From positions 73,842,001-73,906,000 of the forward strand of contig NC_043002.1 of the NCBI RefSeq assembly GCF_006345805.1: DNA of 64,000 bases, in the 5' to 3' direction. Both the position numbers and the translations under genes were made by a program. The notes beneath the pieces were generated by a model. That model searched no databases. It was not told the DNA's origin and worked only from the letters and a program-made list of their open reading frames with translations. Of the stretch, positions 6,194-59,477 are shown one piece after another. Each line of letters begins with the position of its first letter. Position 1 is the first letter of the stretch. This stretch comes from Octopus sinensis (Eukaryota).

Positions 6194-6238
6194 CTCATAA
6201 CTCTCAGCTGGCACTGAAGATAGCTCTTTATCACCACC
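6194..6238 (-). CDS. APBA1: 45-nt exon, phase 0-0 (GGDKELSSVPAESYE), PTB loop insert
   Basis: ttctccttcattctcctggccag|GGTGGT...TATGAG|gtaggt; open frame; an in-frame upstream acceptor gives exon start 6268. Confidence 0.75.
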
Positions 6239-11583: not shown

Positions 11584-14537
11584 TTTGCGAAGATATAACA
11601 AGTACCTTTGATATTTATTCAATCAAAGGGGATCATATGAATGAAAAACATGTATCAGTATGAAATATACATAAAAATTCATTAAATGACAGACAATATA
11701 TTTCTCAATTTCTCACTTATTCTTAAATAAGTTAAAAAGTGAGATACTGACATTGTGCTTAAACAAAAAGTTATAATAAAATAATGTTCTAGAACTACAA
11801 TATATGAAATACATAAAATCACTGAGATCAAAGTGAATAGAAAAGCAAAACAAACAAAAAAAAATAAATAAATAAAGCTAAAATACATCACAATGAATTT
11901 TAGGAAAATAATGAGACTGGTGCCATATGAATGCTGAAATTATACTAATTAAAGGCTGTTTAAATGAAGTGCATGATTTTGACGCTGAGATAATGATGTG
12001 AAGACATTTTTGTGCCAATAAATAAATAAATAAATAAAACATGATGATATTCCAGAGTTTTGAACAAATAAATAAAATTAGTTTTGCTGAAAAATTTCAA
12101 ATGTGAATATATGCATGCAAAATAATATAAAGACTACACATATTTAGTGAACAGATAATGCTGACAAAAGAAGACCGTAAAGAAGACACTTCAAAACTTG
12201 ACACATTCTTACTATATAAAACATTCTCACATATAAAAAAAATTGAAATGCTATCTAAATGAAAATTAAGGACAACAGGCCTTATAGACAGATAAAATAA
12301 AAGATTAGTAGCCAATTCTTTCATCATACTACAACATCAAATCTTGGTAATAGTTTACAAAATTTATTACTTAAAAGTTAAAAAGTATCAAGTAAAAGTG
12401 AAGAAAATACTATAAAAATGCATTTACTATTTTAGGCTAAATATATAGACAGAAAAAATGTATGTATGTGAATGGATGGGCAAATATACATACATATGAG
12501 AGGACACATCGATTGTGCCCATTGCTGCAGGAAAGATACAATCTACATCAACAACAACTGCCTCAAAATGTCACACTACCTTTTCATGAGACATGACAGT
12601 GTAGCCAAAAATATTTACAATGCTATTACATGAAGGATTGTCTTGATGCTCATACAAAAAGCACACCAGACCCATGAATCCGCACCTTTAAAAATAAGGA
12701 ATACTGTGGAGCAATCCAATAGAAACAACAAACTTATGCAAAAACAACAGACCTCACACTGTTTCAGGGGACAGGGAACAACTATCATAATTTATAAGTT
12801 AGTTGCCCATAGAGATCAATGTCTCATCTAAAGTTGTAGAAAAGATCATCAATGAGGAACTGATGCAGAACTTACAACTTTTGTATCCTGGATCTAAATG
12901 TCTTCCTGTAATTATCATAGATGCATTGGATAATGAAACAACAGATTTGAAATAGAAAATAGAAGCCCAAAAGTGCTAGAACAAAGCAAACTCACTCACA
13001 CCCTTCAAATCCAATTAATTAGTGGATACAGTGAAGATGTGCAAAACATTCTAAAGATTCTTCATTTAAATTTCTTGGAATAAACATATATACACAATCT
13101 TATATGTACATATAGTAAACACACATACACACACATCCAGATATACACCCACATATATGCATTTATTAACTCATTCTCATATTCACAAATTGCAGGATGT
13201 ATCTTGACTCAAAGAATCCTTGTCACTTTTCTAGTAACTGACTTCAATTCTGCACAGAAAAATATACATAGATACACACAAATTAGTATGTATACATAAT
13301 ACATACACACATGATCGCTTAGCTGGTGCTTTATAAAATACAATGAAAGAACCATATTTCTGGGTTAGAAACAGGCTTTTTCCTGTATTGGTAATAAATT
13401 TAAATTATATAGCCAGAAAAACAACAGAACACACATACATTACACACACACATACAAAATGAATAAGCAATAATGCATTTCCTGAATAAATGAGAAAAAA
13501 TAACAAAGATCAACAACTAGTAGTGTTTCACAATATGAAGGTTTCCAGTTTGAATGTTATGATAAACAGATAAAACTTCAGTTACTCATACTTACAGATG
13601 TATAAACAGATATGAGTTTGATAGAAAAGAAAAAGTAACTTTCCTTCACTAAAATTGCCATAGAAATATTTTTTACATGACCCTAAACACTTCACTTATT
13701 TAGCAAAATAAAATATTTTAGTGTATTGAGGAAATACATATCAAAATGGTAATTTCAGAAGAATGCAATATGTTTACAACAAGTATAAAACAACTGATTT
13801 CTTGCATAAGCACAACTTCTGATTTATGCATAAAGTCATCTGATTTGTGCATAAGTATATAAATGTAAAAAATTTAAATTCAGAATCTAAACAGAGGAGA
13901 GAATGCATCTTATGTTCCAAACAACTATACAAGTATAAAGTGATGGAAAATTAAAACCAGGAATGGAATGTTTGTTTCAAGCATTTTTAAGATGACCTTA
14001 AAATTTACAAACAACTAATTAAGACTAAGTGAAAATTCAACAGAAATAATATTTCACACACACACAACAAATAATTCAGAGACTCAAATGAAATGATTCT
14101 AAATGATAAGAATATCTTCCTTTTTTTTTTTCCTGTCCAGAGTCAATTTAAAATCAAATTAAAATTTTCAAAATATATTGGAAGACTTAAAGGTAGTGTT
14201 TATATTATAGTATAATAAAAATTGAAGGTGGCAGGATTCCAACAAGGTAATGCTAAGTTATCAGTTACAACGCAAATATATTTGAATTTTTTCTTTTTGT
14301 ATTTTTATTAATTATATTAAAATAAATATTAACTGTATTCTCCAAAAAAAAAAAAAAGAAAAAAAAAAGGAAGATTCTTCTACATTCAAATAGCTTTAAA
14401 TGAAAAATACTGAATATTGCTTTCTTAAATTACAGCGAGTAAAGAAATAAATAGCAAGTAGTAACTAAATATATGGGTGAGATGTTTTACAACTATTGTA
14501 CAGACAATATCAAAAAAGGAAGAATGAGATAACTCAC

Positions 14538-14543
14538 CGAAGC
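14538..14543 (-). CDS. APBA1: 6-nt microexon GCTTCG (Ala-Ser), phase 0-0, inside the PTB domain
   Basis: Long pyrimidine tract tttcctccttttctccctcacttctttcatattacatttttag, 6 nt, then consensus donor gtgagt. Confidence 0.7.
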
Positions 14544-14961
14544 CTAAAAATGTAATATGAAAGAAGTGAGGGAGAAAAGGAGGAAATGTTAAAATGCATT
14601 AAATTAAAAAGAGTTCATCAGGATAAATAAAACTTAAACATATACACACATAGCACAAGATTGCATCTAATTCACACTCACTCTCTCACACATAAACATA
14701 TATACATATATATGGACAATATACATTTTTAGATGGAAATACATACACCTAAGATATATGATTTTATGAAAAATATATATACATATATCTTAATACAAGA
14801 TATATGTAAGTTAAAAAGAATATAATAAATGCACAAACAAATGGAAAACAGACAGAGAAGGTTGCCAAATCCTTATCAGTTATTGGCCAAAAGATCAATG
14901 CAATTTCGCACCTATGCAACATATCTTTATATAAAACATAGACACAGGGATATATCTTTAT

Positions 14962-22034: not shown

Positions 22035-22186
22035 CTTAATTCGTCCAACAGCTTCTTGTGCTTGTATCATTCTCATTGGTTTTGATGGTTGCCCTTCAGA
22101 TATTAATTGTGTAGAACCAAGGTAACGTGCTCGAAATAACACACCTTCTATCAATACTGCAGGGTTGTCCGGATCATTTATGCAAA
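22035..22186 (-). CDS. APBA1: First PTB-domain exon, 152 nt, phase 1-0 (CINDPDNPAVLIEGVLFRARYLGSTQLISEGQPSKPMRMIQAQEAVGRIK)
   Basis: Recognisable X11/Mint PTB N-terminus (F-x-A-x-YLGSTQL; RMxQAQEAV); acceptor tatttggcag (in-frame alternative gives exon start 22156), donor AAG|GTGAAG. Confidence 0.95.
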
Positions 22187-32358: not shown

Positions 32359-32389
32359 CCTCCTTAGCACGTGATCGCCTTTTCTCAGC
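32359..32389 (-). CDS. APBA1: 31-nt small exon, phase 0-1 (AEKRRSRAKE)
   Basis: ttttgtttgtcttttcag|GCTGAG...AAGGAGG|gtgagt; supplies the phase 0 to 1 change needed to enter the PTB exon; basic patch before the PTB. Confidence 0.85.
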
Positions 32390-38589: not shown

Positions 38590-38607
38590 CATATTCTTCT
38601 TCACAGG
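38590..38607 (-). CDS. APBA1: 18-nt microexon, phase 0-0 (PVKKNM)
   Basis: ttttttttttgtctcttag|CCTGTGAAGAAGAATATG|gtgaga; frame-preserving between two phase-0 junctions. Confidence 0.75.
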
Positions 38608-38995: not shown

Positions 38996-39105
38996 TTGTG
39001 CACCGAGATTTATTGGAGGTTTACTCAACTCTGGAATGTCAACATGCTGGTCAGTTTGATATTGTTTTTGGAGTAATTTGTCAGTTTCTTCATCTGTATC
39101 AAAAT
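38996..39105 (-). CDS. APBA1: X11/Mint exon, 110 nt, phase 1-0 (FDTDEETDKLLQKQYQTDQHVDIPELSKPPINLGAQ)
   Basis: Acceptor catatttttccttag, donor CAA|GTGAGT; DTDEETDKLL resembles a motif I recall upstream of the PTB in invertebrate X11 proteins. Confidence 0.85.
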
Positions 39106-41201
39106 CTAAGGAAAAATATGAAATGTTAATGTCCAATAACAGTGAAAACCAGAACTAAAAGCTACTAAGTGCACAGAACTAAATTGATATAAAAGACATT
39201 GTTGATAATGCTGAAGTAGTTAGAAAAGCAATATCATATAATAATTTGAATCTTGACAATAGTAATGAGTCCCAATAGTAATCTTTAAAAAAAAAATCAC
39301 ACATAATTAATTGAACATCAAAAAAAAATCACAAGCACAGGTGTAACAAAAAAATGCCATGTCAAGGAAGATTTCAACAAATTACAAACATACATTACAC
39401 ACACACACACACACACACACAAACAAGCATTCATTTGATTCAATACAAAGTGATTTAATCAATATTTTACACTTATTTTTATCACTGACAATTTCAATTC
39501 AAGCTGAAATCATCCTGTCAATGATAGATTTGCTTCAGCTAAACAATTGTTCCAGTATAGAGCAGCAACAAACTTCATTTTTATCATGGAATTGACAAAA
39601 AAAAAACTTTTGCAAATAATGTAGCCCTAAAGGGTTGTGCAGTATCAGATCAAATAAGCAGATTCACAATAAACCACCATTCTTTAGAGCAAGATACCAA
39701 GTACAGAGCCAATAAATTAATCAATAGACATTTGAGTTCTACACAGCTGCTTGACCTTAATGTAGTAGTCAAATCTCTGCCAATAAACTCTCAAACATCA
39801 ACTAAATAAATTAAGTCCTTAATCTTAAAGACAAAGAAAAAGATGGTTATGAAAATGAGTGACAAATTTTCACCCGATATAACATATTATATTTGCAAAA
39901 CCAAAGCACTGAATATGAGCCTTGTTTCTAACGATTTGATGAGCTACCACCACATGGATCAGCTCAAGAAGATCTAAGCATACTCAACAACAGGTAGTAT
40001 AAATGAAGGCAGCATCAGGCTTTACTTTGAATGATCATTACTTATAGCTACTTAGAAAAAATAAGTTATATTTTGTTTTATTAACAAGAAACTCAGTCTC
40101 ACTATAAACAACATCATAGCTCAATATCAAAAATGTGATTTTGTGTAACTATAAAACCTAGAAACTTTAAAACATAAAGCTATAAATATACATGCAGAAT
40201 TTGAATTGTAAATCTAGGGAATATACTACCATATAACTGAGAAATTAATGTTAATTAAAAATATCAACTGTTGATTGCAAAAAAGAAAACTGAAGTTATA
40301 TGTATCTGTAATAAAAACTGTTTAAAGATAGCTAAATTTAAACCATTATAAATGGAAATTAAATCCATATTAAACTTGGCCTGTTTTCATTAATTTTGAG
40401 ATAATACTCTTTTACTGGTAATACAGCCAGTTATCTATGACCATGCTTAAATAGAATTGAGTTTTAAATAACTAACAATTTTTATTTAACATATGCCAAG
40501 TATGTAAGCCAGTTAACAAAAAGAAATTAAAATACTGAGTTCTGAAAACAAAAATAGTCCTCCAACAACAAAGAATACCTACAATAAACATAAAAACATT
40601 ATTGTATAACTGTAGAATATATAATTTATATTGTCTTAATTATAGATACTAATAATAATAAGACGAAGATTCAAGATAGAGATGTTAAAGAAAACAGATT
40701 ATAAAATGTTTGTTTGTAACTCCAGGGAAGTAAAAGAAATAATCAAATTTAAAAAATGTCAGGTAAGAAATATAAAAGTAATAAAAATGCCTAATGTTGA
40801 CATTAGTAATAAAAAGGTTTACACAATTCACAAAACTAATGTCATCACAGTAGCTCAACTTAAATATTCTGAACATATGTCTTAAGAATACACACACACA
40901 TGGAACAAAAAAAAAAAAAAATAAAGAAAGAAATTGCATGAGTGTGCACATCACAAAACAGGAAATAAGTTGTTATTAATTGATTCATTTATTCAGGACA
41001 AGATTTCATATAATCCAATGTTTTCAAATCTGATCAATAACAATATCTTTTGACTGCATACAGAGCCAGAATTTTTTAGGAGCACATGTAACCAACAGAC
41101 TTTAAATATGTACCAGCAAATAGTTGTACAAACTAAGAAAGACAAAGATAAATTCAGCTTTCTATGAATTTAAACTCAGAAAATTAACACACAAAGTTTA
41201 A

Positions 41202-41328
41202 CCTTTAACATATTTAGGTGCATCATGTCACTGTATGAGTTTTCTCTTACATAGCTGCAGGCACATTGTCACATTGAAAGGGGAGAAAACTCATACAGCA
41301 ACATGATGCACCAACAGCATGCTAAAAG
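41202..41328. mobile_element. TTAA-flanked hairpin MITE (piggyBac-like)
   Basis: TTAA at 41198 and 41329; internal 30-bp inverted repeat 41217-41246 / 41283-41312 (28/30). Confidence 0.65.
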
Positions 41329-42965
41329 TTAATACAATATAATGGGCCACATCTAGCTCTCTACTACCCTTGGAAAGGAACCAATGAGAACACTGATATG
41401 ACCATGATCTTTTCAAGAAATATAAAAAGTATTAATATTCTAATATGGATTTAAATCTATTTTGATGTGTTCCTATGACCAGCAAAATGCCATTTACATT
41501 ATGCAAAGATCAAAACCTTTTAGAGATCATATTTTTATAATGAACAAATTTGGAGGGAGTCAGTAAAGTAGTTAGCTTTTTTATTAATTGTTCTATTAAA
41601 CCAATTAGAAGTATAACTAACAGGAGGTTCTTACTTAAAATTATCATCATCCAAGGTATTTAACTAAGAACATTTTAAAACGAAATTTTTTATCTTGAAC
41701 CAGAAGTAGTCTTAAATGGAGTGATATCAAAGGGTTTTAAAAGAGCTCTAAGTACATAAAGGTAACCTAAGAAAAGGCTCAATTGAGAATTCATATAAAT
41801 AAAAAAAAATTACAACTGTCTTTGAAAAAGAAAGCCATCACTGAAAAGCAAAAGTGTACAATATAAGATAAAGAGAATTTATTAATGCACTCAGAATACA
41901 GACATCTATAAAAGTGGGCTATAGAATCTATTATATGAGAGCAGACTCCAGAATTTATTATAACCTAAAATAAATGATCAAATCAATATTGTAAAAACCA
42001 CATTAAATAATGCTCTCTTTAGATAGTTGAAAAGTAATTTCCTATCAAATTATGGTGTTTAATACCAAATCCACTTGAACACAAAGATATTTAATAAAAA
42101 ATTTCTAAAGTAATCAAGCTCTCTATAAACTTGTTAAATTAGGGCAACCAACAGTATCTAAGGCTGCTTTTATGAAGTGTAAAATGCTTTGAACTAGCAA
42201 CAACCTTGACTTGAACATCTCTTTATCACCATGGTATCATTTGTACACTACGATGAGAAAATGAAAATATGGGATACACAGTAGTTCATTTGGATCCTAT
42301 CCTTTAAGATACATAACTTCAGATAAGTTAAAAGAATTTGAAAAGCACTATGCTATAATCATGCATGATATAAAATGTATAAATTTTATTTTAGAATGTG
42401 TAAAACTTATAAACTGTCAACAAGAATTTGTGCACTAACAAGGGCAGCTTCTTTGGTACTGTAAATTAAATATAAAAGATATATAAAACTACTATTATTG
42501 TTGTTGTTTCTTCCTTTTTTTCTTCATGGTGGCCTTTTTTTTAAAAATAATTTATAAGATATTTTAAATAATTTACAAATAACATTTTTTTTTTACAATT
42601 ATTCAATAAACTTAACTTTCATAGATATATAGGCTAAATTTAGTTTGAAATATCAGTATAGCTAAACACTTTCCATTTTTTCAAATGTGTGTAGTTTTAG
42701 CAAAAGTGGGACAATTTCAGTCATCTATTCAATCTATTCTTAAATAGAAATTTAAGAAGTAGACCAAAAAGACCACATTTTAAGATAATATAGATGTTCA
42801 CTAGAGACAAAATTTCATAGTGATAAAACAGATGAAATCCTAACAGTTACTACTCAATATTTTAACTTTACATTAATGTCTCAACCGTTAAAATATGCTA
42901 ACTTTATTTCCTTCCACAATTCAATTTCTTTTGAAATATTATCAATTTTCAAGTACAAGCTGATG

Positions 42966-42968
<3 letters not shown>

Positions 42969-43019
<51 letters not shown>
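42969..43019. repeat. Interrupted (TA)n microsatellite
   Basis: Direct reading. Confidence 0.9.
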
Positions 43020-45152
43020 TTCATTAATTTCAAATGTTTTAATGTTCATTACACAATACTAATTAAACTTATCTTATTAATGTTATTAATTGCATCTTGT
43101 AGTGTTAACAGTTAGGTTTCATTGAATATATGTCTTCCAGAATGGTTGTATTGACTGACTTTTGATGTAGAAAAATGCTAACAATGAAGACCTGAGAACT
43201 GGAACATAGTTGACTTTAAGAGTCCTCATTGTTGGCCTGCTTCTTTCTTACAACATCTGAAGACTTCTTCTTTGCAGTTACATTTAAGGAAAGTCAGTTC
43301 AACATGGTATTTTCCTCTTCCAAAGTGCAGACAATGGGATGCATCAACAGACCACAAAAAATGTCAAAGGTTTTGAATGTTTACTTTAGTGGTCCTTGTA
43401 TCATTGCCTCTTACAAGATACTTTACTTCTTGCAGTTTGTAAGGCAGATCCCAGCAGTTATCACACCTAAAACAACTCAAACAAGCTTTTCAATAATTTT
43501 TTTTTCAATTTTACTTAACAGTGATAAAGTAAAATTAAACAAATTTGATAAAATACAGCAAATATTTTTTCAACTTAAAATGTGTTATGTGTATATCAAA
43601 AATGGGAGGGAATGAAAAAGGGAAGCAAAATAGGAGAATCTTATTTTTTAAATAAACATTTCATAAAAGAATTATTATTATAAGAAAATCTTTAGAAAAA
43701 CCTTTATTTAAAGTTTCATTTTGATAGAATTTTTTCTGTGGAAGGAAATAATGGGAAAAGTGCAGTTTAAACTTCAAAGGTGCAATGAATGAATAGGTTT
43801 GTTAATTTATATCCATGCTTATAGGATGTGAATAAGTATAAACAAAAAATTACATCAGTTACATATCATTTTAGAATATATTCATAAAATTTTAATATTC
43901 ATAACTGTTGAAATGATGTATGTTTTGTGCATTAAAGAAAATATTTCCTATTTTCTTTGATCATGCATATCTCATTCAAATTGAAAAATGATAATCTTAT
44001 AAAATTAGATTCCTTATCCACATAAGTTGTGAGCTTTATACTAAGGAATTATCTTCAATAGCAAACTATTTAAAAACAAGATTGAAGAATTCAGTTTGAG
44101 CAAAAGTAAAAAAATAACAATTTTGTTTCCACTCTTTTCTTCCCTTTAGTTTTTTTGTTTTTTTCAAAGCCCATATTAGAACAAAAATTAATTATTCATT
44201 TAGAGAAAAGCACAAAAGAGGGTTCAAGAGTGAAATGCTAAGAGGTAAGAAAACTTTTAATCGGAGGAATTAGTTACAAGCGGGAGTATGCCAATAATAT
44301 GAAACTAAAGAAGTAGCCAATAGTTATAGATTTAAGACAATTAATGAAGCTTCACAATAAAACTGTTAAAGAACTTCATTAATATGCAGAAATCATTATC
44401 AAAATTTCAGAAATCAAATGAGACAGAGTGATGTGTGAAAAAACACAGACAATAATTTTAGAGAAATGTCAAGCATAACAAAGAAGTTGAGAGTGAAAAG
44501 ACTACTATTACGTGAAAAAGTTTGTCATGTGGTTTAATCCACTGGACAGTCATTAAGGAAATTAGAAGTTTGAATATGTTAGTATTTTAGTTTTAATTAT
44601 TTATTATTTGGAACATTCATTAAGATTTCAGGGATAACAGTTAAACACTACTAGCATTATCAACAACAAGAAAGAAATGAACTTCTGTTACAAATTTATG
44701 CCAAAATATATATTTTTTCATTAAATGCATCTTAATCTACATTAAAAGTGTACCACAGATAATATGAGTGGGGATTATAGAAATATAAACTGCTTAATCA
44801 CAATTTGCAGCTTGTGAAATATAGATAAAGAAAGAAATAAGGCACTAAATGATTTCAATGAGTTTTCCAAAGGCCTCATATGATAAAAAGAAAGTTTTGT
44901 TTGTAACTGAATAAGAAGAAAACACCTTATCTGTAAGCATTCCACTTACATAAATTTATCTATTTCAATAAAACAGCTGTTTATTATTTAAAAGCCAGAG
45001 TAAGCGTAACTCAAAAGATGTAAGAAGCAAATGTAGTAGTGTTGACATAAGAAAGGAAAAAGGAGAGGACTGAGAGGTAGAACAGAAACAGTGGTAGCCT
45101 CCACCTGAAAAAAGAAATTAGGGCACTAAATCTATTTGTGTTGACCACTCAC

Positions 45153-45227
45153 TGGTAGCAGGGCAGCGGAATTGCACGGGCGAATCGCCATCTTCATCAT
45201 CATAGTCTGTACTGCTTATTGAATTTA
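45153..45227 (-). CDS. APBA1: X11/Mint exon, 75 nt, phase 1-1 (NSISSTDYDDEDGDSPVQFRCPAT)
   Basis: Acceptor ttattctctttctccag, donor CCA|GTGAGT; CpG-containing GC-rich island in AT-rich intron; open frame. Confidence 0.8.
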
Positions 45228-48200
45228 CTGGAGAAAGAGAATAACATAGCAAATATAAGCCAGATGGCATATTATAAGAACAAAAGATGTCTGGAAATAA
45301 TAGAGAAGAAACAGAATTTTAAAGTAGATGAATTATTAGGGAAAAGCTTCAAATAGATGAAAGTAAGAGTAAAGGCTTTAGCTTGACACAGGAATGAAAA
45401 GATGAGGTAAAAGAAAAAGAGAAAGTTAAGTGGAAAGAAAAAAAAGGATTAAAATGATAAAAGTTGGCTTTATATATATACAATTTAAAGCTGTTATCTA
45501 TCTGTTTTTAAAATGTCTTGAACACTAATCTGAAATTTCTTAGATTTGAAAAGAAAAGATTTGTAAAATGTATGTGCACATTTGAGAATGGGAGAGTACA
45601 CAACTGTATTATGTGTGGGAACATTTTAGGTGAAAGGAACTGATCTTTTAAGATGCCTAACTACTAAACCAAAAGTCTGGTGTTCAAGCTCTCCAATGAA
45701 TATGCTCACTAAGTAGATGTGGTACCTGAATAGTATTGTGAAGGTTGAGTGGGTGTTGAAGTAGTTAACATGTTTTTTCCATGCTAGCATGTTTAGAATA
45801 GTTTATTTGTTGATGCAACTGTTTTTGTAGCTAGATGTCCTTTCTTATTCTAAGGAAGAAGAAATGGAATCTGGATAGTGTTACATGGCAAGTTCAGAGG
45901 TACAACTCAAAGCTTAAGCTTGTGGCTGTAGGATTGAGTTATTAAGAAAATCAACATTAAAAATGAATGTGTGTAAGAGCAGAAATGACAGGTTTTATCT
46001 ATTTCTCTCTCCCCCCTTTTTTTTTTATTTTCAGTAGGTGCAAGCAGGTTTGTTTTAATACAGAGTTCATGTTATGAACATGTATTTTCAGGTTCTGTAG
46101 CTGTATCTTGAAAAGACAAGTGGTATAAAAATCTTTTATTTATAAAAAACAGTTAAGGGTTGGTAACAGGAAGAGCATCTGGCCTGAAAATACTACATCC
46201 AATAAATCTTCATCCACACCATGCCAGCATGGAAGAGTAAAGATTAAAATGAATGAAAAATAGAAAAATGATTTCATTAATTTCAAAGGTTGGTTTGAAA
46301 TTGGAGCTATAGTTAAAATTCAGCCTCTAGTTTAGAGATTTGAACTCTTGGACTATAGGCTGATAATCCACTAAAATATCCACTCTACCAGTTCACACAC
46401 ACATTTGTTTGTTTCCTCATTAAAAATGCATTACCCAAAATGATGCACTGATAACCAACCAAAAAATGGGCTTTAACTGCTCCATTCCCTTCCCATCCTA
46501 TCAGCAAGTTACTTATAGTCTACTAAGTTCTTCACCAATCACAATTTCCCCCCCCCCCCCAAATGACAGCTCACTGGAATTCCCCAACCATCCATATTTT
46601 TCATGCAGACATCATATTGCAGATGTTGAAATGAAACATAAAACATCAACCTCACAAGTTTTGCGCCAGAAAAGATTATGGGTACAGTTCCTTCCTCCTA
46701 ACTAAACTGGAAAAAAAATAAAGAATTTAAAAATCAACTTTACTGTAAACACCAACCAGACATGCAAGTGAGTGTATTTGTATTATAACACCAGTTATAT
46801 TCTGTAATAATTTGATACAGCTACAATTATTTCCCTTTGCAGTAAGCAAGAATTAATGAATATTTTATATTTCTCATTACAGTATATTGTTTCTAGATTT
46901 TATATCTTTAAATGCTGATTCTTAGCAACATGCTTTCTCAGCAGCTTCTGCAGCATGTAAAATGCTTCCACAGAAAAACAGATGCATAAAGCCTTGAATT
47001 TTTCCACTGTATTCATTCACTAGCATGAAATAAACACATACACACACACAATAAATAAATAAATAAATAAATAATAACTGAAAACTTATTTCTGTGAACA
47101 TCTTATATGGCCTAATACCATATAACAGGACAAACAGAACATCTCTACTCAGGAGAAGAAAAAAAAGAAAAAATTTACAGTTTTGAAGTTTCACCTTTGC
47201 TAAACTTAATCAAAGGAAGGATTTTGAAAAACTGCATATATGTCTTTCTTTTGTTATCAGAATTCAATAACACAGGAATACTCTCACCAGAAAACAAATA
47301 AAGCTTAAATGATAGAGCAAATATAGAAAAAGAAGTAAAAAGCATGTGGCACTAATGGATAAGATTTCCATTGTAGTCAAAGAACTACAGTGAGGACTAA
47401 TAAAAATCAAGGAGGCAGGATATGAAGTTTTGAAAAATCTGGTTAGTAAACCTAACACAGTCTTGCCTTTACTGAAATAAGTTTAAATATCATAAAAATA
47501 TGAGTGATAGAGTGTATAGAAATCTTGAAATTGGCAACAGAATATGATGAGTTCAGTGTTAAAATTATGGTTTCCAGGAAAGACAATAAAATACCAATAT
47601 TCTAAATAACAATTAGTTATCTTCTATAATTAAACATCCATTAATTTTTTTTTTAATTACAAAAAGTCACTGTTGATTTAAGAAAAATAAGAACAAAACT
47701 CCAAGATTTTAAAATATTCTCTGTTGGAATTTGGGTTTTGAAGTATATGCAGAAATTTCAGATTATATCACCAGCAAATGAAAACAGACTAAGATGGTTA
47801 AGGCATTCTGCCAAAAATATAAAATATTGAAGCATAAAGAATTTAAGAGGATCATGAACTAAAAATACTTGAAAAATCAGATTTCACATCAAGACAAAAC
47901 TTAGAATGCTAGTTCAGATGTTAGAAGCTAAAATATAAGGAAACTACTGCACTGCTGACCTTGCCAACATATACCAGCACTGAAAAACCACTAGTGATGG
48001 ATAGGATGAGATTGATGACCATCTTCATTATCAGGATAATGATTTTGTTAATTACAATAGTGATGATGATGATGATGATGATAAATGATGATGATGAATA
48101 ATGTTGAAGATGAGGCATAAAACAATATGAATGTTGATTTCTTTGCACTATCATTAAGTTTATATGCTGTGCACGAAATCTGAAGTAGTAGGCATAACTC

Positions 48201-49479
48201 TTTTGATGCCTGAGTATTCTGAATGTATTTTGGGGATATAGCTGTTGCTTAAATGCAGGTCAACCTTGATTAAGTAAATCTATGATCTAAGGCATTTCAG
48301 CTGTGATCATCTTTTTTTGTATCTAGGGCTGCATTGTCTAAAGTGCCCTTTCATTTTTAAGATGGTAAAATATGACACAAGGGAATGTGCCTGCTATTTT
48401 ATATAACTGGAGCACCCATATAGCAGTTCCTTCATTGGACTGTAATGTAGAATGTTATGTAGAGATATATTTAGATAGGAAAGGATATGTAAATGTTAGA
48501 GAAGATAAGTAAATTTGACAACATCCAATGTGTGCTCTTTGCTGAGGTGTGTTCTTTTACAATGCATTTTGTTGTTAGAACACCAGGCCTATCATCATTA
48601 TCATCACTGAATGAGTCATCATAGTTTGTGTCAAAACATTATTTGGAGAACTGAATCAGAGGAACATAATCTTACTCATTTCTCCATTTGTGGATGGTTT
48701 TCAACAGCTGGATGCCCTACTTAACACTAACCACTTTACAAAGTGTATACAGGCTGCATTTTATTTTGGCATAAGCACTACAGAGGTCCAAGTCCTCAAC
48801 ACAGCGAAAGAATCCAATCTACTTTATGTTGTCTCCACTCAATTTCCAACTTATTACAGGATTTACTGGATGCACTTATCTCAGTACAAACACTAAAGTG
48901 GTTGCTCTATTCGCTAAAAGACTAGTTTCCCTACTCTACATAGTCTCTGTTCTTTCAAAGCAAACACAAGAATGGACAGAAGGGGAAAAGAACAGAGAAT
49001 ATGAGTATAACTGAGAGAGAGCACAAGAGGAAGGATTGGGAGGGAGGGCAACAGTGATGGAATGGCAGTGGAAAGGGACTTATAGGGACAGTTATATCTG
49101 GTTATTGGCAAGAGTTTGAATAGAAAATTCCATGATGAATCTCATGGGATAGCAATAAAGATGATGGTTAGAGATAGAGGGAGATGGTATGTTACAATGG
49201 CCATTACAATGCCATCCTTCATTACACAGGTGTCATGATGGAAGAAAAGTAGAGAACTAGAAGGATGATATTGGAAGAGAGAGGGATAATAAGAATGGAT
49301 GATGGTGGATAGATAAAGCAAATGCCATTCTTTGTTACACAGGAATCAGGCTACAGCAAATAGGATAGAGGGTAACAAATAGGGCTGTACATGGAAACTT
49401 AAGAACATAATGGGTGAGAGAATAAAATATACATCTCAAGCTCTATCACCACCATCATTATTTTAATGATTATTTTGCC

Positions 49480-49700
49480 ATGCTTGCACCAGTGAGTGGA
49501 TCTTCTCCATATGTCACCAATCATCACAGACCAATCACCACATTTCCATTATAATTTCTTTGTCATCCTATATCTTCCTCTACTACAGACTTCACCCATT
49601 TCACACACTTGACACTTCTTTACTCAACTCTCATTCACCATGCTTGTATCAGTGCCAAGTTCTCTCTTGCACAAGGCATACATTAACTATTTTAAACATT
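49480..49700 (-). mobile_element. Old RTE ORF fragment
   Basis: Minus strand gtgcaagagaga...atggtgaatgagagt...gaagtgtca resembles the VQER..WY.H..RM..VKKC region of the 20107 ORF. Confidence 0.5.
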
Positions 49701-51674
49701 TTAGACATGTTCAGAGTTGTTAGGATAGTTGTTTGGGGCCTAAAGAAGAATGTTTTCATGGCATATGGTGATACAGGAAAGTATTTCTGAAGATATACTT
49801 TCGATGGGTTTCTTTTTATGCTTAAGAATATATATATATTTCTCTAGTATCCTTGTTATCCTTAGTATATGTGATGGGCTGTTATGATGGTCCCAAGTTC
49901 ATATTATTTAGCATTAAAATGTGCAGTATAGTAAAGCTGGCATTTGTATACCAACAAAGTGTTTAATATTTGTAATAGCAGACGGAAGTAATGATGATAA
50001 TGATACATCATGTTAATAATAGTGATTATGGCTTTGGTGGTGGTGTTGATGATAAAGCTACCATCACAAATGATAATGAATGGTGGTGATGAATTGTGAT
50101 GATGAATCATGTGGGTGATCATGATGATTCTCAATTTTAAGAAAATTTCAGGCTATATTTATTGCTATGAACATTAACGTTTGATTTATTATCATTTCAC
50201 TTTCCAGATGTTACAAGTGTTTTTTTTTTTTACTATTATCAGTTTTTTTACATAAAAAAAAAGCTACAAGCAAACACAGATGATATATTGTCCATAGGAC
50301 AAATATTAGATTAACACATCATAATCGTTAATGTATTTCTAATTAAACTCAGAAATTTTCATCAAGCCATATTAATTAAAATCATTACATGAAAAACATT
50401 AATTATAAATGTCTATATAAAAGAATAATTTTATACGAAATCACTTTAGGGAATTTACTATGATTTCATTCACATTTAGGAACTGAATATTTCAGCATAA
50501 ACCAACAGACTTACTGACTTGTACTATACTAAGTCACCTTGGTCTTTTAGTAATTAAAACGTTCCATGTGAAATATACTCTTAATGAATAATAATATTAT
50601 TGTTAGAAGGAATTTAAATCATTTTCAGAAGTTACTAAGCATGCAAAATATACAGTATAAACTCTCAGTCCAACAACACAACAAGCAATGAATGAATTAC
50701 AATGACATGTGGTAAAATCATGCAAAGCAGTTGTCTATAATTTTCAATAAACCTTTCACTTCAAATTCCTATTGACAAGTTGCCAAATCTGCAACATTTA
50801 AGTAGATGTAATCGAAATTATCAAACACTGGCTTATTTATAACATTAAGAATGTCTTAATTTATTCTGCAGTGAACTATTAATAAATAAAAAAAAATGCT
50901 TTATTTTATTTATTTGGCTATTTCTATAAATAAAGAAAGCTAAATGTTGCCAATAAGTAGTCTAATCAATAATAAGAGTACAACTAAGTATTTATCGTGT
51001 GTGTACTGAACAAATTAAATACACTATTTATGTATCTTTAGAATGAGACTATGATGTTTGAAGACTAGACTAGGAAATTAAAGCAGTTATCTTGTGAATT
51101 TTATAGATACAAAAACAGATTTGATAATATTGAAGGAAAGAGGCAGTGTTAATTTACAGTAATAAGTGCATTTATTAATTAAGTCTAAATTTTAAAAAAA
51201 TAATGAATATCAAATTGTTTTGTAAACAATTAGTTGCATGATTCACATTCAATAACCTTAATTTATTCTATTTCACTTCATAATTGTTCAAAATACCCAA
51301 GTATGATAAAATACATTGGTAACAATTTTACTATAAATGATAAACTAAATTTATGGGAGAATTGATTCCTTCTTATATCTAATCAAACTTTTCATGTGTT
51401 TTAAAAAACTGCTAAATAAAACTAACAGTGTAGTTTGATTAAATACATATTGAGTCTTCTATCTTTTCCACATCACATTCTTCTTAAAGACTTCATATTC
51501 TAACATGAAATTTCCAAACGCTTAAGCTGATGATCTATCTAAACTTATATAATTCATTGCAGTTTATTCAATAGATTAAAAAAAACCCTCCAAAATATAT
51601 AGCTTTTAAGAAGTTCATTAAATTAATGTTGCATATATTACATTAGTCATTATTTCTTTACAATTAAACTTCAC

Positions 51675-51677
<3 letters not shown>

Positions 51678-51725
<48 letters not shown>
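51678..51725. repeat. (TA)n microsatellite
   Basis: Direct reading. Confidence 0.95.
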
Positions 51726-51733
<8 letters not shown>

Positions 51734-52537
51734 TAAGTCAAGACTTCTGAAATATTTACATATACTAAAGAATGAATATATGGAGCATGAAAATAAAATA
51801 TAAAAGTTTTTAATGAGAAACGAACTGATTGAAGCACCCAAATTTTATCTCTGATTCTAAACAATATTTCCTTTCCTCCTCATCTGTTAATTACCTAAAA
51901 TATATTTTGATAAAATATTTCAGAAATGTAAGCAAATTGCAATTTGAAAATTTCATTGAAAAAAAATTTGAAAATATATCTGGGTAGTAAGTAAATGTAG
52001 TTGAATATTAGATGACATGAATATGAAATAAGCTATTTTATATTTGCATGAAAATTCTTAGAAGAATATTGTAAACATTAATGTTTATAAAAACTTGGCA
52101 ACTTGAGGTGCAAAAAAAAAAAAAAAAAAATTAAAGGTTAATGATCAAAATAATGATTGTAATCATTTTTAGATTTTGATGACTACAAAAAAAACAAAAA
52201 AAAAAACATGTGATTTCAAGACAAACATTTTTCTCATTTAACCTAAAATACATCACAAATACAACACTACAAAAAAAATGTTAGAGAAAGTAGGTTAAAA
52301 GCTATCATAAGCCAAAGAAATAATAGATAGAGATAAGTAACAAATTCTAGTTAAATATTTTTTAAAAGGACATTAGATATTAAAATTAATTAATTAAGAG
52401 AAAGGAATTATAACTTAAAACATTTTTTCTAAAATGATTATTAGCTATGACTGTAATATAAACAAGAATTAGTATCTAGAGATGTTTGAAGATAATAGGG
52501 TTGGGGGATGAAATTCTCCTTATATCTAAGTCAGTAC

Positions 52538-52897
52538 CTCCAGGAGTAGCTGTCTTGACATAGGCAGTTGTACTATTGGATGGAGAAACAACTTCATCAC
52601 TTCCACTTTCCTCAGATGAACCCTGTGATCCCGAGTAGTACTTGGTTGGGACAGACGTTCGCTGACATGCACTAGAATTAGGAGCACCATGTGCAGAGGC
52701 ATGCGAAACATCGTTATAAAACTGGTCTTTATCCTTGCTCAGTGACGACAGATCACTGGAGACTTTTTTGGAAACTGTGCGATAAACAGATTTCTCAATG
52801 CCTTCATCATTTGGAACCGACGCATATTTTCTCCCCTTGTTGCGCCGAACATAACACATATCTTCATTATCTTCATACTCATCATCGGTTTCATAAC
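52538..52897 (-). CDS. APBA1: X11/Mint exon, 360 nt, phase 1-1 (GYETDDEYEDNED...VKTATPG)
   Basis: Core of ORF 52476..52916; acceptor catttatttctag, donor GAG|GTACTG; higher GC than the flanks; low-complexity Ser/acidic sequence typical of a disordered N-terminus. Confidence 0.85.
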
Positions 52898-55800
52898 CTA
52901 GAAATAAATGAATCATGCCTGGATATGATAATCATGCAGCATTCAACACAAAATGTTTAAATAAATACCAAACAATAAATTAAAAAAAAAGACATCACAT
53001 GAACAGCAAATACAATAGCAATGCAACATTTCAAAAGAAATAAAAATGAATAACTTATAAAAGGCACAAATACTTATGTGAATTGCACAATTAACTAAAT
53101 TTTATAAAGAACTATAAGCCAAAACATAACTGAACTGGAGAGTAATAAATATCAAACCACATGAAAGAAATCTTTAAACTGGTCTTAACTTAAAAGTAAA
53201 ATCTGAAGAAGTTAGAAAATACTTGCTATTTTTAACTATTTATTTGATTCATGCTTTTTGGCAATTTATAATAATTTCTCAGTTGCTGAAGTTACTTTTC
53301 TATGGACAAAATTAATTATTATACTTGAGTGGTATTTATTTCATCACCTTGGAGAAGTCAAATGCAAAGTAGACATCAAATATAATAGTGTATTTGATAC
53401 AACATACACTGTTTCATACTTGCTTTAAACTGAATAGTGTTTATCATCAGTATGTCATATATTTAACCAACTTAATGCAGTCTAGATTTAAAAAAAAAAA
53501 AATTTGTATTTTATCTACATGTCTACAAATACTAACATTTTAAGTAGGAATTTTATGACTGTTTCAGTAACAAAGTGGCTCTATTCAGACACCACATTAT
53601 GAAGAGTAACTATATGCTTAAGTCAATCAATATACTCTATTTGAAACTGACAAAGTTTAAGGTAAAAAGATTAGCACTAAGGAAAGGACAACAAATGAGA
53701 ATGACTAGAGATATGGGATTTTCTAATCCACTCCAACTATGCCAATTTAGAAAAAGAAACAAAACTTAGAAAACTCTATTTTTAAAATTTATTTTTCAGC
53801 TACTTTCTAATGAAAAATTTTCAATGAACCTTGAAATATAATGGAAATACATATGAAAAGCTTAGAAACAGTCTTGTAGAACACTTGATATTCTGTGAGT
53901 TCCCTTTCATATTATCAATCAAGTTTTGAAATGCAAGACAAAATATAAATTATTCAAAGAATAGCATGACAGCTTACAATATATTAATTTTCAGCATAAT
54001 CAACAGTCTTGCTGCTCAATCTAATTAAAATATAAAATTAGATATTAAAATTTACTTATAATTTTCAACAAATTTTCTTTTACTCTTCATCAAAAAAGAT
54101 ATCCATCCACTTCAATATAGTTTTTCTGTTGTAACTATCTTGTTTTCTTTTTTTTTATTACTATGAAACCAATGCTTTTCATTTTACTTACTAAGAATAT
54201 AAGAAATATGATTCAGTTTTCTTTAGCTATTTCAATAAATTGTTGTTTCTGGAAACTACTATGAGCATCATAAAAAATAATATCATTGTTAGTGATGAAA
54301 AAAATTTTTTTTTTATTTTAGGATTTCAAAAGTGAACATGGAGTTAATTTAAGTTATTCATTCTAATAAACAGAGTGATTTTAGTAAACCCCACACTGCA
54401 GAAATATAATCAATATAAATACACCAGCCAATATTTCTAATGAGTGGTTTAGAGTACATTATAATTACTTCCCTCAAAGATGTCATTACAGATGTTAGTA
54501 CTGAAGTATTCTAAAACAATCAGCAGATCATACCACATAGACCTAGAAAAACTGATAGGATTAAAAGACTAATAGCATAATACTAAAAGCCATAATAATA
54601 AAGCAATTGTACATTAATTTCCTAACAACTAGTCATAATGTAAAGTGAAAGGGCAGCCCACAAAATGTACAGTGTTCAATTATAATGTAAAATTATTGAG
54701 GTAAAAACATGCAAACCATTTATTAAAATGCTTCATGCAAGAGTTTACATAATGTATAAAGAGCCATTTCAACAGACAACAAGGATTACAACATAATCAA
54801 CAGTATAAAATACAGAGTAGTTTGTAAAAATGCAAAGATTTAAATTAAATACAAAATTTACTGTAAAGAGACCCATGCACTGTGACAAAGAAACAATGAA
54901 TTGCATCAATAATCTTAAACAGAGAATTGGACATAATTATCAAGCAAAAGTAATTAAAAAGTGACAAGAAAGGAAACTATTTATAAACGATGCATTAGTT
55001 CTTTCTATACACACATATATATATTAGCATTCAAAATTAGAATAATTCAACAACTATTTTGAACCATTATTTTTTTTATAATAAAAATAAGTCTTCTTTA
55101 GTAGTTTCTCATTTCAAGTTTCAATTTAACTAGTCCACTAGTATAGTACTAAAGTTAACATTTATAATTCACGGGTTATTGCTAAATTACACAGAGTTTA
55201 ATAATTTGTTTTGTCTGCCAGTTATTTTGGTAGGTATGGAATAAATATATAATAAATATTCTTCATGACAAAAAAAAAAGCAAATAATAGAAATAAATAG
55301 AAAATGGCTTAATGAAAGACAACTGAGTTAAAACCAAACCTGAATGATAAGTTTGAAAAGTTAATGTAATATTTTCATACATATTAATTTAAAGCTAACA
55401 TTAATGTAATGATTTATTTTGTCTTCCTTTCAGAACCAGAAATATTTGAAACAGGAATACATAGGAAGAAACAGATTGAAAGAAATAGAAAGAAACAGAT
55501 CAATTGATCTATCAACAGACGAAGTGTTTAATTTTCCGATAACTATTTTAACAAAGTGAACGTTACAACCAAAATGAATTCTTCACACAAAAAAATTCCA
55601 CAAGACAGAAATGAGCTGGTCTCTTTAATTTGAGAAAATTTCAAATATATCTCCTTAAACTGGAATCAAAGTTAAATATTAAATTTAATACATACCAAAT
55701 AAAAATAAGTTCATATAAATCAGATTTCCTTATGTCAATGTTACCTATGATAGTTATTTATGAAGAATTAAAAGTCAAAAATCTATGTACTTCAAAAATA

Positions 55801-56288
55801 GCATGCTCTTCAATCATATTTTTTTCCCCAATAATCCAAAATTTTCAAGATGTAAAGCTTAAGTAAAAATAAATCTTCTATAAAAAAAAATTATAAATTA
55901 ATGGATTCAACATGCTTCTTTTATAAATTCAGGATAATTATAATGAAAATAAATTCAGGTAGTTTATTGTAATCCAAGGGAAATAGTAGTGTCAGCTATA
56001 TGCATGGAAATAAATAATTTAAAAACTAAAGAAAACATTTGAGGTTTCTTTTAAAAATATCAAATGCTCTTTATAAATCTCACTCAAATGTCTCCCAAAG
56101 TTTTCCTTTTTATTTTGTTTAAAAGCATACTTTACTTGTAGGTTGATACCATTGAGTTTAAAAAAAAAAAATTTTTATTCTAAATCAAAATATCAAAATA
56201 TCTGAACATTTTTCACCATTCATATTTTAATTAATTTTGAAAAACTGAAAAATAGAATTTTAACTTCATAAGCAGTTAGTTTTCTTAC

Positions 56289-56372
56289 CTTTTGGTGTCT
56301 GATAGGTTTTACCATCATTTCTAGTGTACTGGTTTTCTAAAAGACCATCTTTCTCATTTTCCATCTCATAGA
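56289..56372 (-). CDS. APBA1: X11/Mint exon, 84 nt, phase 1-1 (YEMENEKDGLLENQYTRNDGKTYQTPK)
   Basis: Acceptor tcttcttgtag, donor AAG|GTAAGA; 2+81+1 nt open frame, compatible with both neighbours. Confidence 0.8.
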
Positions 56373-57224
56373 CTACAAGAAGATATATAGTTAATGTGAT
56401 TAAATACAATAGAATATATGTACCCTAATGTAAAACAGTAGTTTTCAAAGAATTAGATAGCATCAGTTAGAGAATAAAAATTAATTTTTTTTTATGGCTG
56501 AGTTAAGGGAAGAGCAGAACCTATGTCTTTTGAGATTAATGGCACAAAAAAGTGGAAGAAATTGCAAATTACGTTATTCTTAGGCCACCCTATTGGGTGG
56601 CCCGCCACTCAGTGTGTTAAATAGCTTATTTTATAGATATTATTTTCATAGGTAGAGCTGAAATAAATACATTGAATTAAACAAAAACTTATAAATTCCG
56701 TTTATTTTAAGTATCATCAAGCAATTTTAGTAACTTTAAAAAAAAAGCAGTTTTAGTATCCTGAAAACATCCAGTTTAAGTTAGTGTTATGTATTGCTCA
56801 ATGGGGATAAGTAAATAGACTTCCTTTTTTTTTTTTTTTTTTTGTAACCTTCATTTTGTAAATGGACTTTTGATGTTTCTACAGCTCTCTACAACATGAA
56901 GAGCTTATTAATTAACATTAACAATAATCATTACTAATATAATCGCAAAGTCTGGAATTTGGGGGAGTTAGTCAACTGCATCAACCCCAGTACTTCATTT
57001 TATCAACACTGGAAGAATAAAAGCAGAAGTTGAACTCAGAATGTAAAGAACCATAACCAAATGAGCATGATTCTACCAAATGACTGCATTAAGTCCGATT
57101 TTAAATAATAACATATTGTTTAACGTATTTCCACTTAAAGTTCCAGGACCTTATATAAAATAACAAAATTGAAATAAAGCAGAAAATTCACTTGCTATAT
57201 ATATATATAACAAGAAAGAAAGAG

Positions 57225-57313
57225 AGCAGTGATTAGGAATAAATGAATTTAGTCAAAATATGTCACAAGCATATTTTAAAGAACCTAGAGTTTGTTTATT
57301 CCTAATCACTGCT
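57225..57313. repeat. Perfect 19-bp inverted repeat with an inner 8-bp stem (probable MITE)
   Basis: AGCAGTGATTAGGAATAAA / TTTATTCCTAATCACTGCT; inner AAAATATG / CATATTTT; a partial arm recurs near 35145. Confidence 0.75.
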
Positions 57314-57828
57314 TGGTGCTGTTATTTTTATCCTGTCCAAAAGGTCCACTAGCACAACCCATTCACTGTAGTCAAATCTACAGCTTTGAATCTGCTCATG
57401 GTTATTTCTCTTTGGCATTTCCCATTGAAGGAGGCTAAAAAGCCATAAATGTGCTGCTGAGAATCCACTAGAGGGAAGCAATGGATAGGTATGGTGTTTT
57501 TATACCTTTTACCAGAAGAGATAACTTTTTCTCTATGGAATTTGCTTTTGGAAGTTAAAGTGTCATAAACATATTTTAACTAACCTAATATGCTAAAGGA
57601 GAGAGATACCAAAAATTATACTCTAATATATGCTATCTTTTACTAGTTTCAGTAAGACTGTGGCTATGCTGAGGCACCAACTTGAAGAATTTTCAATGAA
57701 TCAATCCCAGTACTTTTTTTATTTAAAGCCTGGTATTTATTCTATTGGTCTCTTTCACCAAACTGCTAAGTTACAGGGACATAAACACTGACAAATATAT
57801 ACACACACATATATATATATATATATAT

Positions 57829-57985
57829 GCGATAGGTTTCTTTCAGTTTCCATCTACCAAATCCACTCACAAGGCTTTGATCAGCTGAAAACTATAATAG
57901 AAAACACTCGCTCAAGGTGCCATGCCATGGGACTAAACCTGGAACCATGTGGTTGGGAAGTGAACTTCTTACCAAACAACCACCT
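57829..57985 (-). mobile_element. tRNA-derived SINE head
   Basis: Reverse complement of the head at 23760; further copies at ~35850-35965 and 18787-18930. Confidence 0.7.
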
Positions 57986-59276
57986 ATTAATTAATACTGA
58001 ATGATATGTAATACAGCTTATTATAAAGACTATTTAATACACATTGTATCACAAGTGGTTGGCATTGAGTTTCAGATACATCAATTATGCCAAAATAAAG
58101 TTGGAGTTGAACTCTGAAGGTCATTTAGATATTGGGAGGAGGAATGAGTATGACAGAAGACTGTAACATCTATAAATAACGGAAATACAGAGATGTATCA
58201 ATGGTTAATGTAGAAAAGATTTTAATCAGAAGAAAGGTACAGTAATTAGAGCAATACACAATGGTATAATTCACAAGCAGAATTTTAAACACTAACTTCA
58301 TAACATGATGAGATAAAGCTGATATCCTGGATGTAGAAATTGCTCATCTATTTACTTTACATCTGTTTTTCCATACTAGCATGTGTTAGATGAACATATG
58401 TTGAGGCATTATTTCATTGATGGATGCCCTTCCTGCCACTAATTCTTACTTATTTTTTTAAGTAAGGGAGCTGTCATTCTACTAGTCTTCGAAAGTGCAG
58501 AGTTACCAGATGATTTATTGACAAAGAAATGACAGACACCAGTGGCTGTAGTTCAGGGATTTTTCATGCAATCACAGAAAGTAAGCATTCACACTCAGAC
58601 ACACATGATGGACTTTCTATCTCTCAAACTCACTAATAAGGCATTAATCAGCTTAGGACATGTGGTTTTGCAAAGCAAACTTTTTAACCACACAACCATG
58701 CCTGCACGTAAATGTTTTTTTGTTTTTTGTTCCCCCATCTAAAATATTAGTTTTTATAATTTAATATTTCCAGGTGTAACAGCATTCAGTACATAAGCTT
58801 TATCAGTTGAAATGAAAATATTTACCTGATAACAAATATATTAAATTTACAATATCTCTTATAAATGCCATCAAAAGAACCAATTTCCTTATTCCTACTT
58901 GTGTACAATATTTGATTCAATTACCATTACAGCTGACAGGACACTTTGCTCTGAAATTCTTTGCATTACACACATGTATATCTGCATGTGTGCACAGACA
59001 TACTGATACACTCTTAAAATGTTCCAGTGTAAACACTTCAACACTTCAGAGTATTTGTTGTTGACTTTCTAAAATAAGTGTTGCCTAATTGGTAAGGTAT
59101 CAGTTTTAGGAATAATGAAACTATGTGGGCTAGACTTTCTCTTTGGTCAATAATGCTCTTCCTGCTCATGAAACAAAAATATAATTTTTGTAAAAACATT
59201 CCACTATCTTCCACAATCACCCTTACTTGGATGCATTAAAACAGTGTTATATTGTCTAAAAGAGAAAACATTTTAA

Positions 59277-59477
59277 CCCTTTAATATTTAGATTACTCTG
59301 TCAAATGTGATACTTATTCACATTGTTTTGAATTAATCTTACATTATCTCATAGCTTCATGATTTCAATGATAGGATTGTTTATTTTTAGAATGATATTG
59401 TAGAGTAGGTGTGTAAGAGGCCAGACCTGGCTGGTTTGAGCATAAAACAGGTAGAATATTTGGGTCTGATATGGCCA
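59277..59477. mobile_element. Truncated piggyBac-like MITE
   Basis: Starts TTAA-CCCTTT like the element at 5266; no right TIR found. Confidence 0.45.

What the first reader, a model, noticed from the sequence alone, without database searches (positions are those of the whole stretch)
14530..14605. 6-nt microexon (Ala-Ser) inside the X11/Mint PTB domain
Seen: on the minus strand, a long AG-free pyrimidine tract ends in TTTTTAG, then GCTTCG, then a consensus GTGAGT donor. It is isolated ~7.5 kb from the upstream PTB exon and in the correct phase 0. Known: neural microexons often tune interaction domains, e.g. the 6-nt exon in the PTB of vertebrate APBB1/Fe65, and vertebrate APBA1/2 carry a short insert at about this PTB position. 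Inference: a neuron-regulated two-residue switch in an APP-binding adaptor that standard annotation would miss.
Basis: partly seen in the sequence, partly recalled or inferred. Interest (0 to 1): 0.8.

Follow-up and report, generated by a model that had tools for sequence, protein, structure and literature searches.

The report
Ancient two-residue microexon in octopus Mint
A six-base optional exon adds two amino acids to a surface loop of the octopus trafficking adaptor X11/Mint; it is already annotated and has same-site counterparts in other molluscs, insects and crustaceans, and it is likely a neuron-biased switch that would tune binding to the Golgi GTPase Rab6 rather than to APP.

Summary
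The unit is real: TTTTTAG|GCTTCG|GTGAGT at 14543-14538 (minus), phase 0, after an 87-nt AG-free tract. It is the only such unit in 164 kb; 4 of 200 shuffles give one. It is not missed by annotation: 15 of 18 retrieved Octopus sinensis RefSeq isoforms carry RIK-AS. It is the first of three cassette exons (6, 45, 36 nt) in one 40.3-kb intron. The AS insert recurs in 8 other mollusc species, and an AL insert sits at the same junction in 17 named crustacean and insect species. Fly X11L's 6-nt exon (GCTTTG, one base from octopus) is a published pan-neuronal eMIC target. Human Mint1's 11-residue exon at this junction blocks Rab6-GTP binding and leaves APP binding intact (PMC3667844). Neural bias in octopus was not testable: 4 of 4 laid runs (tissue unknown) show only full skipping. 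Whether two residues affect Rab6 binding is untested. Verdict: a genuine, annotated microexon of a known kind. The new point is that the mollusc and arthropod exons may be one protostome-ancestral neural microexon.

The parts
14538..14543 (-). 6-nt cassette microexon GCTTCG (Ala-Ser), phase 0-0, between RIK and APEG in the X11/Mint PTB domain
   Evidence: RIK-AS in 15 of 18 retrieved O. sinensis RefSeq isoforms
14544..14632 (-). 3' splice site: TTTTTAG acceptor preceded by an 87-nt AG-free, pyrimidine-rich zone; one TGC at -55, one TCTC at -32, branch-point-like YTNAY at -49, -27 and -18; no CTAAY
14532..14537 (-). 5' splice site GTGAGT (consensus)
22035..22186 (-). upstream PTB exon (CINDP...LIEGVLFRARYLGSTQL...QAQEAVGRIK); some isoforms lack the first residues (CINDPDNPAV stretch), consistent with an inner acceptor
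6194..6238 (-). second cassette exon in the same intron, 45 nt (GGDKELSSVPAESYE), seen only in Octopus records. A third, 36-nt cassette (TLGTLHFGKRYQ) starts at G000:C6:73840033 and the constitutive APEG exon at C6:73823717, both beyond the window's left end
38590..38607 (-). another alternatively included 18-nt microexon (PVKKNM) upstream of the PTB domain
32359..32389 (-). 31-nt exon (AEKRRSRAKE) directly upstream of the PTB exon
   Evidence: (loose end behind 22187)
38996..62400 (-). further N-terminal X11/Mint coding exons at about 62400-62278, 56373-56286, 52897-52540, 45228-45153 and 39105-38996 (edges approximate)

Best explanation
This is an alternatively spliced 6-nt exon of the octopus X11/Mint (APBA/lin-10) gene that inserts Ala-Ser where the first PTB helix is predicted to end and a loop begins, and it is likely included mainly in neurons, where, alone or with the neighbouring 45- and 36-nt cassettes, it would lengthen a loop that likely governs Rab6-GTP binding rather than APP binding. 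Shown: exon, frame, skipping, annotation, same-junction inserts across molluscs, arthropods and vertebrates. Predicted: position at the helix end. Inferred: neural inclusion through the Srrm234 eMIC domain (from the fly counterpart), and the Rab6/Golgi effect (from Mint1 exon 6 and LIN-10).
For: Exon real and optional: RefSeq isoforms with no insert (X12), AS only (X11), AS+36 (X7), 45 only (X6), 45+36 (X2) and all three; the skipped junction is in 4 of 4 laid contigs from 4 studies. Conservation: 36 of 486 fetched proteins have an AS-led insert (O. sinensis plus Haliotis rubra, H. rufescens, Biomphalaria, Lymnaea, Crassostrea gigas, C. virginica, Pecten, Mizuhopecten) and 47 have AL (17 named pancrustacean species) at the same junction. 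Fly X11L 6-nt exon DmeEX0007022 is 'eMICdep, pan-neuronal' and mouse Apba2's 36-nt exon is 'Neural' (PMC8797185 Table S2). Its sequence is GCTTTG, and X11Lbeta has GCGCTG, both Ala-Leu (PMC8042270 Table S4). The long AG-free zone matches the eMIC-target architecture and is the longest of 7 exons compared here (87 vs 23-55 nt). The genome has an SRRM_C (PF15230) match over cut-off. The AlphaFold model puts helix H33-49 ending at the inserted Ala, with a loop 50-59 before the next strand; best fold matches are Mint1/2 PTB structures. Mint1 exon 6 (aa 495-505, MAQKLAKSRKK) aligns to this junction; its skipping enables Rab6-GTP binding and Golgi location without changing APP binding (PMC3667844). 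The LIN-10 PTB binds RAB-6.2-GTP (PMC3255976), so the partner is conserved in protostomes.
Against: No read or contig with the microexon was seen here: 4 of 4 laid runs show only full skipping (contigs collapse minor forms, tissue not on record). Inclusion in octopus rests on RefSeq models. The AS insert was absent from the O. vulgaris (3), O. bimaculoides (2) and Argonauta (1) records with this junction, from all 15 listed Mytilus records, and from the annelid, brachiopod, nemertean, chelicerate, myriapod and nematode records retrieved; these are mostly gene models that can miss 6-nt exons. The only TGC is at -55 and there is no CTAAY branch point, so the eMIC signature is partial. The Rab6 block is documented for an 11-residue, lysine-rich insert; two small neutral residues may do far less. 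The D. melanogaster X11L protein itself was not retrieved, so its exon's position is inferred from its AL sequence and from related dipteran proteins.
Confidence: 0.55

Rival explanations
1. The exon is real and probably neural, but the two residues are nearly neutral for Rab6 binding. Any switch is carried by the longer 36-nt (TLGxLHFGxxYQ) or 45-nt cassettes, or AS tunes another property such as loop dynamics, lipid binding or another partner.
For: AS is small and uncharged, and is mostly annotated together with longer cassettes: 35 of 36 AS-led inserts carry more residues. The 36-nt cassette is conserved in molluscs and the nemertean Lineus.
Against: Arthropod records carry AL without the mollusc cassettes across crustaceans and insects and in both fly paralogs, which suggests selection on a two-residue insert itself.
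Confidence: 0.3
2. The exon is a genuine cassette but not neuron-biased in octopus (broad, developmental or low-level inclusion).
For: No tissue-resolved octopus data were obtained. The eMIC motif set is partial. Published work finds eMIC programmes largely rewired between phyla (PMC8797185 section 13). Human Mint1 skipping and inclusion forms both occur in brain and testis.
Against: The fly counterpart is pan-neuronal and eMIC-dependent; mouse Apba2's 36-nt exon is neural; the AG-free zone is unusually long.
Confidence: 0.12
3. Chance splice-like sequence or annotation artefact that is never used.
For: No inclusion contig in 4 of 4 laid runs; absent from the other cephalopod records retrieved.
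Against: Independent annotations in 8 other molluscs give the same AS at the same junction, including a Lymnaea record AAO83852 (recalled as a cloned cDNA). This locus is the only AG|AS|GT unit in the intron. 4 of 200 shuffles give such a unit.
Confidence: 0.03

Closest known systems
Drosophila X11L 6-nt microexon DmeEX0007022 (GCTTTG, Ala-Leu) and X11Lbeta 6-nt exon (GCGCTG)
   Same: Same gene family, length and phase; 5 of 6 bases identical to X11L's; AL sits at the RIK|AP.G junction in dipteran and other pancrustacean proteins.
   Different: Ser instead of Leu; lies in a 40-kb intron (fly X11L: about 230 nt) together with two more cassettes; neural, eMIC-dependent inclusion is shown for the fly exon only.
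Human APBA1/Mint1 exon 6 (33 nt, aa 495-505; Mint1 vs Mint1-826) and Apba2 36-nt neural exon MmuEX0005512
   Same: Mint1 and Mint2 PTB structures carry an insert at the same junction; optional; skipped forms appear in vertebrate records.
   Different: 11-12 basic residues, with no sequence likeness to AS; function (Rab6 exclusion) measured only for Mint1; probably a separate origin at the same site.
APBB1/Fe65 6-nt neural microexon
   Same: 6-nt microexon in an APP-binding PTB adaptor; named as one of only two bilaterian-ancestral neural exons in bioRxiv 10.64898/2026.09.05.749416.
   Different: A different gene family (APBB, not APBA); not orthologous.

Membership tests
Cassette microexon | 3-27 nt with canonical AG/GT sites, frame preserving | tested here: met
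Cassette microexon | Both included and skipped transcripts exist | tested here: met
   Skipping: 4 of 4 contigs. Inclusion: 15 of 18 RefSeq isoforms, i.e. from gene models, not from reads seen here
Neural eMIC/SRRM3/4-dependent microexon | Neuron-biased inclusion | not testable with these tools
   Runs carry no tissue label and are contigs; the fly counterpart is pan-neuronal
Neural eMIC/SRRM3/4-dependent microexon | Long AG exclusion zone and long pyrimidine tract | tested here: met
   87 nt and 0.81, against 23-55 nt for six other exons of the gene
Neural eMIC/SRRM3/4-dependent microexon | UGC close to the 3' splice site, UCUC repeats, strong CUAAY branch point | tested here: inconclusive
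   TGC only at -55 (and -112), one TCTC, no CTAAY; features as listed in PMC8797185
Neural eMIC/SRRM3/4-dependent microexon | Regulator present and inclusion depends on it | tested here: inconclusive
   SRRM_C (PF15230) match over cut-off at G000:C11337, E 3.3e-4; that this family is the eMIC domain is recalled; dependence is untested
X11/Mint/APBA/LIN-10 adaptor gene | PTB domain followed by two PDZ domains | tested here: met
Ortholog of the arthropod AL microexon | Same intron, length and phase, similar sequence | tested here: met
   position in D. melanogaster X11L inferred
Ortholog of the arthropod AL microexon | Continuous presence in intervening lineages / conserved flanking intron sequence | tested here: inconclusive
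   Not seen in annelid, brachiopod, nemertean, chelicerate, myriapod or nematode proteins retrieved; no other animal genomes were available

The most novel reading that the evidence does not exclude
The mollusc Ala-Ser and pancrustacean Ala-Leu exons are one neural microexon inherited from the protostome ancestor, at a PTB-loop site that vertebrates also use for a neural exon. Neurons across bilaterians would then uncouple X11/Mint from Rab6-dependent Golgi traffic by splicing one loop, with molluscs expanding the site into a combinatorial three-cassette code.
Probability: 0.3. Interest if true: 0.65.

Novelty: new member of a known kind. Interest (0 to 1): 0.42.

Why it matters
Microexon programmes are reported as almost completely rewired between phyla: four same-position exons between fly and mouse (PMC8797185) and two bilaterian-ancestral neural exons (bioRxiv 10.64898/2026.09.05.749416). 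A 6-nt exon shared by octopus, bivalves, snails, crustaceans and insects, at a site where the vertebrate exon has a measured effect on Rab6 binding, is a rare deep candidate with a ready assay, and the fly allows exon deletion. The exon itself is already in RefSeq and the fly exon is already catalogued, so the gain is the cross-phylum link and a testable mechanism, not a new gene part.

Tried and rejected
The look-up of sequencing runs: no RNA holder listed on record (runs guessed as RNA, no tissue labels), so neural versus non-neural could not be compared. I laid 4 of the 24 listed runs, on the upstream exon only. Complex prediction of the skipped PTB with a stand-in Rab6 (unnamed representative P0624), GTP and Mg gave no verdict (0.25 and 0.00 against a mark of 0.34); it is no evidence either way. 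The 2019 eMIC paper (doi 10.1038/s41559-019-0813-6; recalled to include octopus) is not held. The supplements of the 2026 preprint, which includes O. bimaculoides, are closed and may already list this exon group. Literature searches that found no description of this exon in molluscs: microexon+APBA1 (0 papers), microexon+octopus (4), cephalopod+microexons+neural+alternative splicing (1), Lymnaea/Mint1/splic/PTB, microexons/Apba1/Apba2/Mint2/X11L; listings only except where a paper is named as read. The search of earlier findings returned nothing. Rejected: AS arising from alternative splice sites of the flanking exons (the neighbouring intron ends encode other residues); an APP-binding switch as the main effect (PMC3667844).

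Full report
Observation. The minus strand carries ...CATTTTTAG|GCTTCG|GTGAGTTA at 14543-14538, after an 87-nt AG-free zone with 0.81 pyrimidines. The upstream exon (22186-22035) encodes the first half of a PTB domain and ends RIK in phase 0. The window is G000:C6:73842001-73906000. Ten neighbouring stretches show the constitutive APEGENQ exon at C6:73823717, the rest of the PTB and both PDZ domains further left, so the intron is 40,317 nt. Under a post-hoc filter the unit is unique on both strands of 164 kb and appears in 4 of 200 shuffles. It is the only AG|Ala-Ser|GT unit in the intron.

Identity and annotation. The exon's best matches are Octopus APBA/lin-10 proteins at 100% identity; the O. 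sinensis records (LOC115212775) lie on a contig of the same length as C6. Of 18 O. sinensis RefSeq isoforms retrieved (numbered up to X20; X5 and X14 were not listed), 15 contain RIK-AS. They reveal three cassettes in order: AS (6 nt), GGDKELSSVPAESYE (45 nt, window 6238-6194) and TLGTLHFGKRYQ (36 nt, C6:73840033), in combinations none, AS, AS+36, 45, 45+36 and all three.

Transcript evidence. The run search listed 24 runs, none on record as RNA and none with a tissue label. In the 4 runs laid (4 studies), one contig each covers the upstream exon and continues directly into the APEG exon, i.e. all three cassettes skipped (loose ends). This shows that skipping is real and dominant in those samples. 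Contigs drop minor forms, so it neither shows nor excludes inclusion. I saw no inclusion read myself.

Conservation. Among 486 proteins fetched, 65 gave no scorable junction, 310 junctions had no insert, 36 had an AS-led insert and 47 had AL. AS occurs in O. sinensis, Haliotis rubra, H. rufescens, Biomphalaria glabrata, Lymnaea stagnalis, Crassostrea gigas, C. virginica, Pecten maximus and Mizuhopecten yessoensis; a Ruditapes insert beginning LAS was not counted. The 36-nt cassette is shared by gastropods, bivalves and the nemertean Lineus, and each lineage adds its own further cassette. AL occurs in 17 named pancrustaceans, from shrimp, crayfish and barnacle to mayfly, beetles, ants, a wasp and flies. 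No two-residue insert was seen in the other cephalopod, Mytilus, annelid, brachiopod, nemertean, chelicerate, myriapod or nematode records retrieved; most are gene models, so this is weak. Vertebrate Mint1 (MAQKLAKSRKK) and Mint2 (about 12 residues) insert at the same junction.

Published data. PMC8797185 (passages, section 13 and supplement rows read) lists fly X11L's 6-nt exon DmeEX0007022 as eMIC-dependent and pan-neuronal, and mouse Apba2's 36-nt exon as neural; its main text does not mention X11L. PMC8042270 (passages and supplement rows) gives that exon as GCTTTG and an X11Lbeta 6-nt exon as GCGCTG, both Ala-Leu. The octopus exon differs from X11L's by one base. PMC3667844 (abstract, introduction, part 1 of section 21, section 24, passages) shows that skipping Mint1 exon 6 enables GTP-dependent Rab6 binding through the PTB and Golgi accumulation, without changing APP binding. 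PMC3255976 (passages) shows that the LIN-10 PTB binds RAB-6.2-GTP. bioRxiv 10.64898/2026.09.05.749416 (passages, sections 9-10) names only APBB1/2/3 and MADD as bilaterian-ancestral neural exons; APBA and X11 do not occur in its main text, and its supplements are closed. Passage searches of PMC11405698, PMC10820826, PMC12626424 and PMC10484994 added nothing on this exon.

Mechanism. A 180-residue model of the AS form (mean pLDDT 80.9) has the first helix at 33-49, with Lys48 the last upstream residue, the inserted Ala49-Ser50 at the helix end, and a loop before the strand at 60. Its best matches are Mint1/Mint2 PTB structures. From established PTB structure (my knowledge), APP binds between the ISYIADI strand and the last helix, which are different elements. 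The exon has the long AG-free zone of eMIC targets but only a distant TGC and no CTAAY, and the genome has an SRRM_C match. I infer that neurons likely include AS, often with the longer cassettes, lengthening the loop and weakening Rab6-GTP coupling, while the skipped form would act as a Golgi adaptor like Mint1-826, Mint3 and LIN-10. My odds: real exon about 0.97; neural bias about 0.75; this loop's cassettes together gating Rab6 about 0.55; AS alone doing so about 0.3.

Origin. A single protostome origin is supported by the same site, length, phase and first residue in two phyla and by the one-base difference. Convergence remains open. The downstream exon begins GCT CCA (Ala-Pro), and both Ser (TCN) and Leu (CTN) codons are one change from Pro, so duplication of that acceptor with its first two codons could produce such an exon once or more than once (inference). 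The vertebrate exons share only the position.

Verdict. A real, annotated microexon of a known kind, with a catalogued neural counterpart in the fly and a functionally characterised same-site exon in mammals. The cross-phylum link, the molluscan three-cassette cluster and the Rab6 hypothesis are the added value; I did not find them in print in the searches named under Tried and rejected. Interest 0.42.

Noticed in passing
G000:C6:73840033-73839998 (minus; about 2 kb left of the window): 36-nt cassette TLGxLHFGxxYQ/FQ is conserved across octopus, gastropods, bivalves and the nemertean Lineus, more strongly than expected for a plain loop insert; possibly a binding motif of its own.
   Followed up: partly
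window 38590-38607 (-): Second annotated alternative microexon (18 nt, PVKKNM) just upstream of the PTB domain; present in some O. sinensis isoforms and absent in others.
   Followed up: partly
insect X11 proteins, e.g. P0194, P0203, P0349, P0401: Many insects carry a second, diverged copy of the PTB first-half exon (VFRLxFLGSVEV...EEAVTKIK) just before the AL/APEG junction, possibly a duplicated alternative exon. Not searched for specifically in octopus.
   Followed up: no
window 2047-2838 (-): Broken Tc1/mariner-like transposase fragment in the intron (recognised by eye from the translation; family name recalled).
   Followed up: no
window 20086-20781 (+): Non-LTR retrotransposon (RTE-like) reverse-transcriptase C-terminal fragment, followed by short repeated elements to about 21350 (family name recalled).
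   Followed up: no
L020 (G000:C11337:11167-11301, -): Exon matching SRRM_C/PF15230 (SPSHLDKRRIT motif), likely part of the octopus Srrm234 eMIC domain, on a small unplaced contig.
   Followed up: partly
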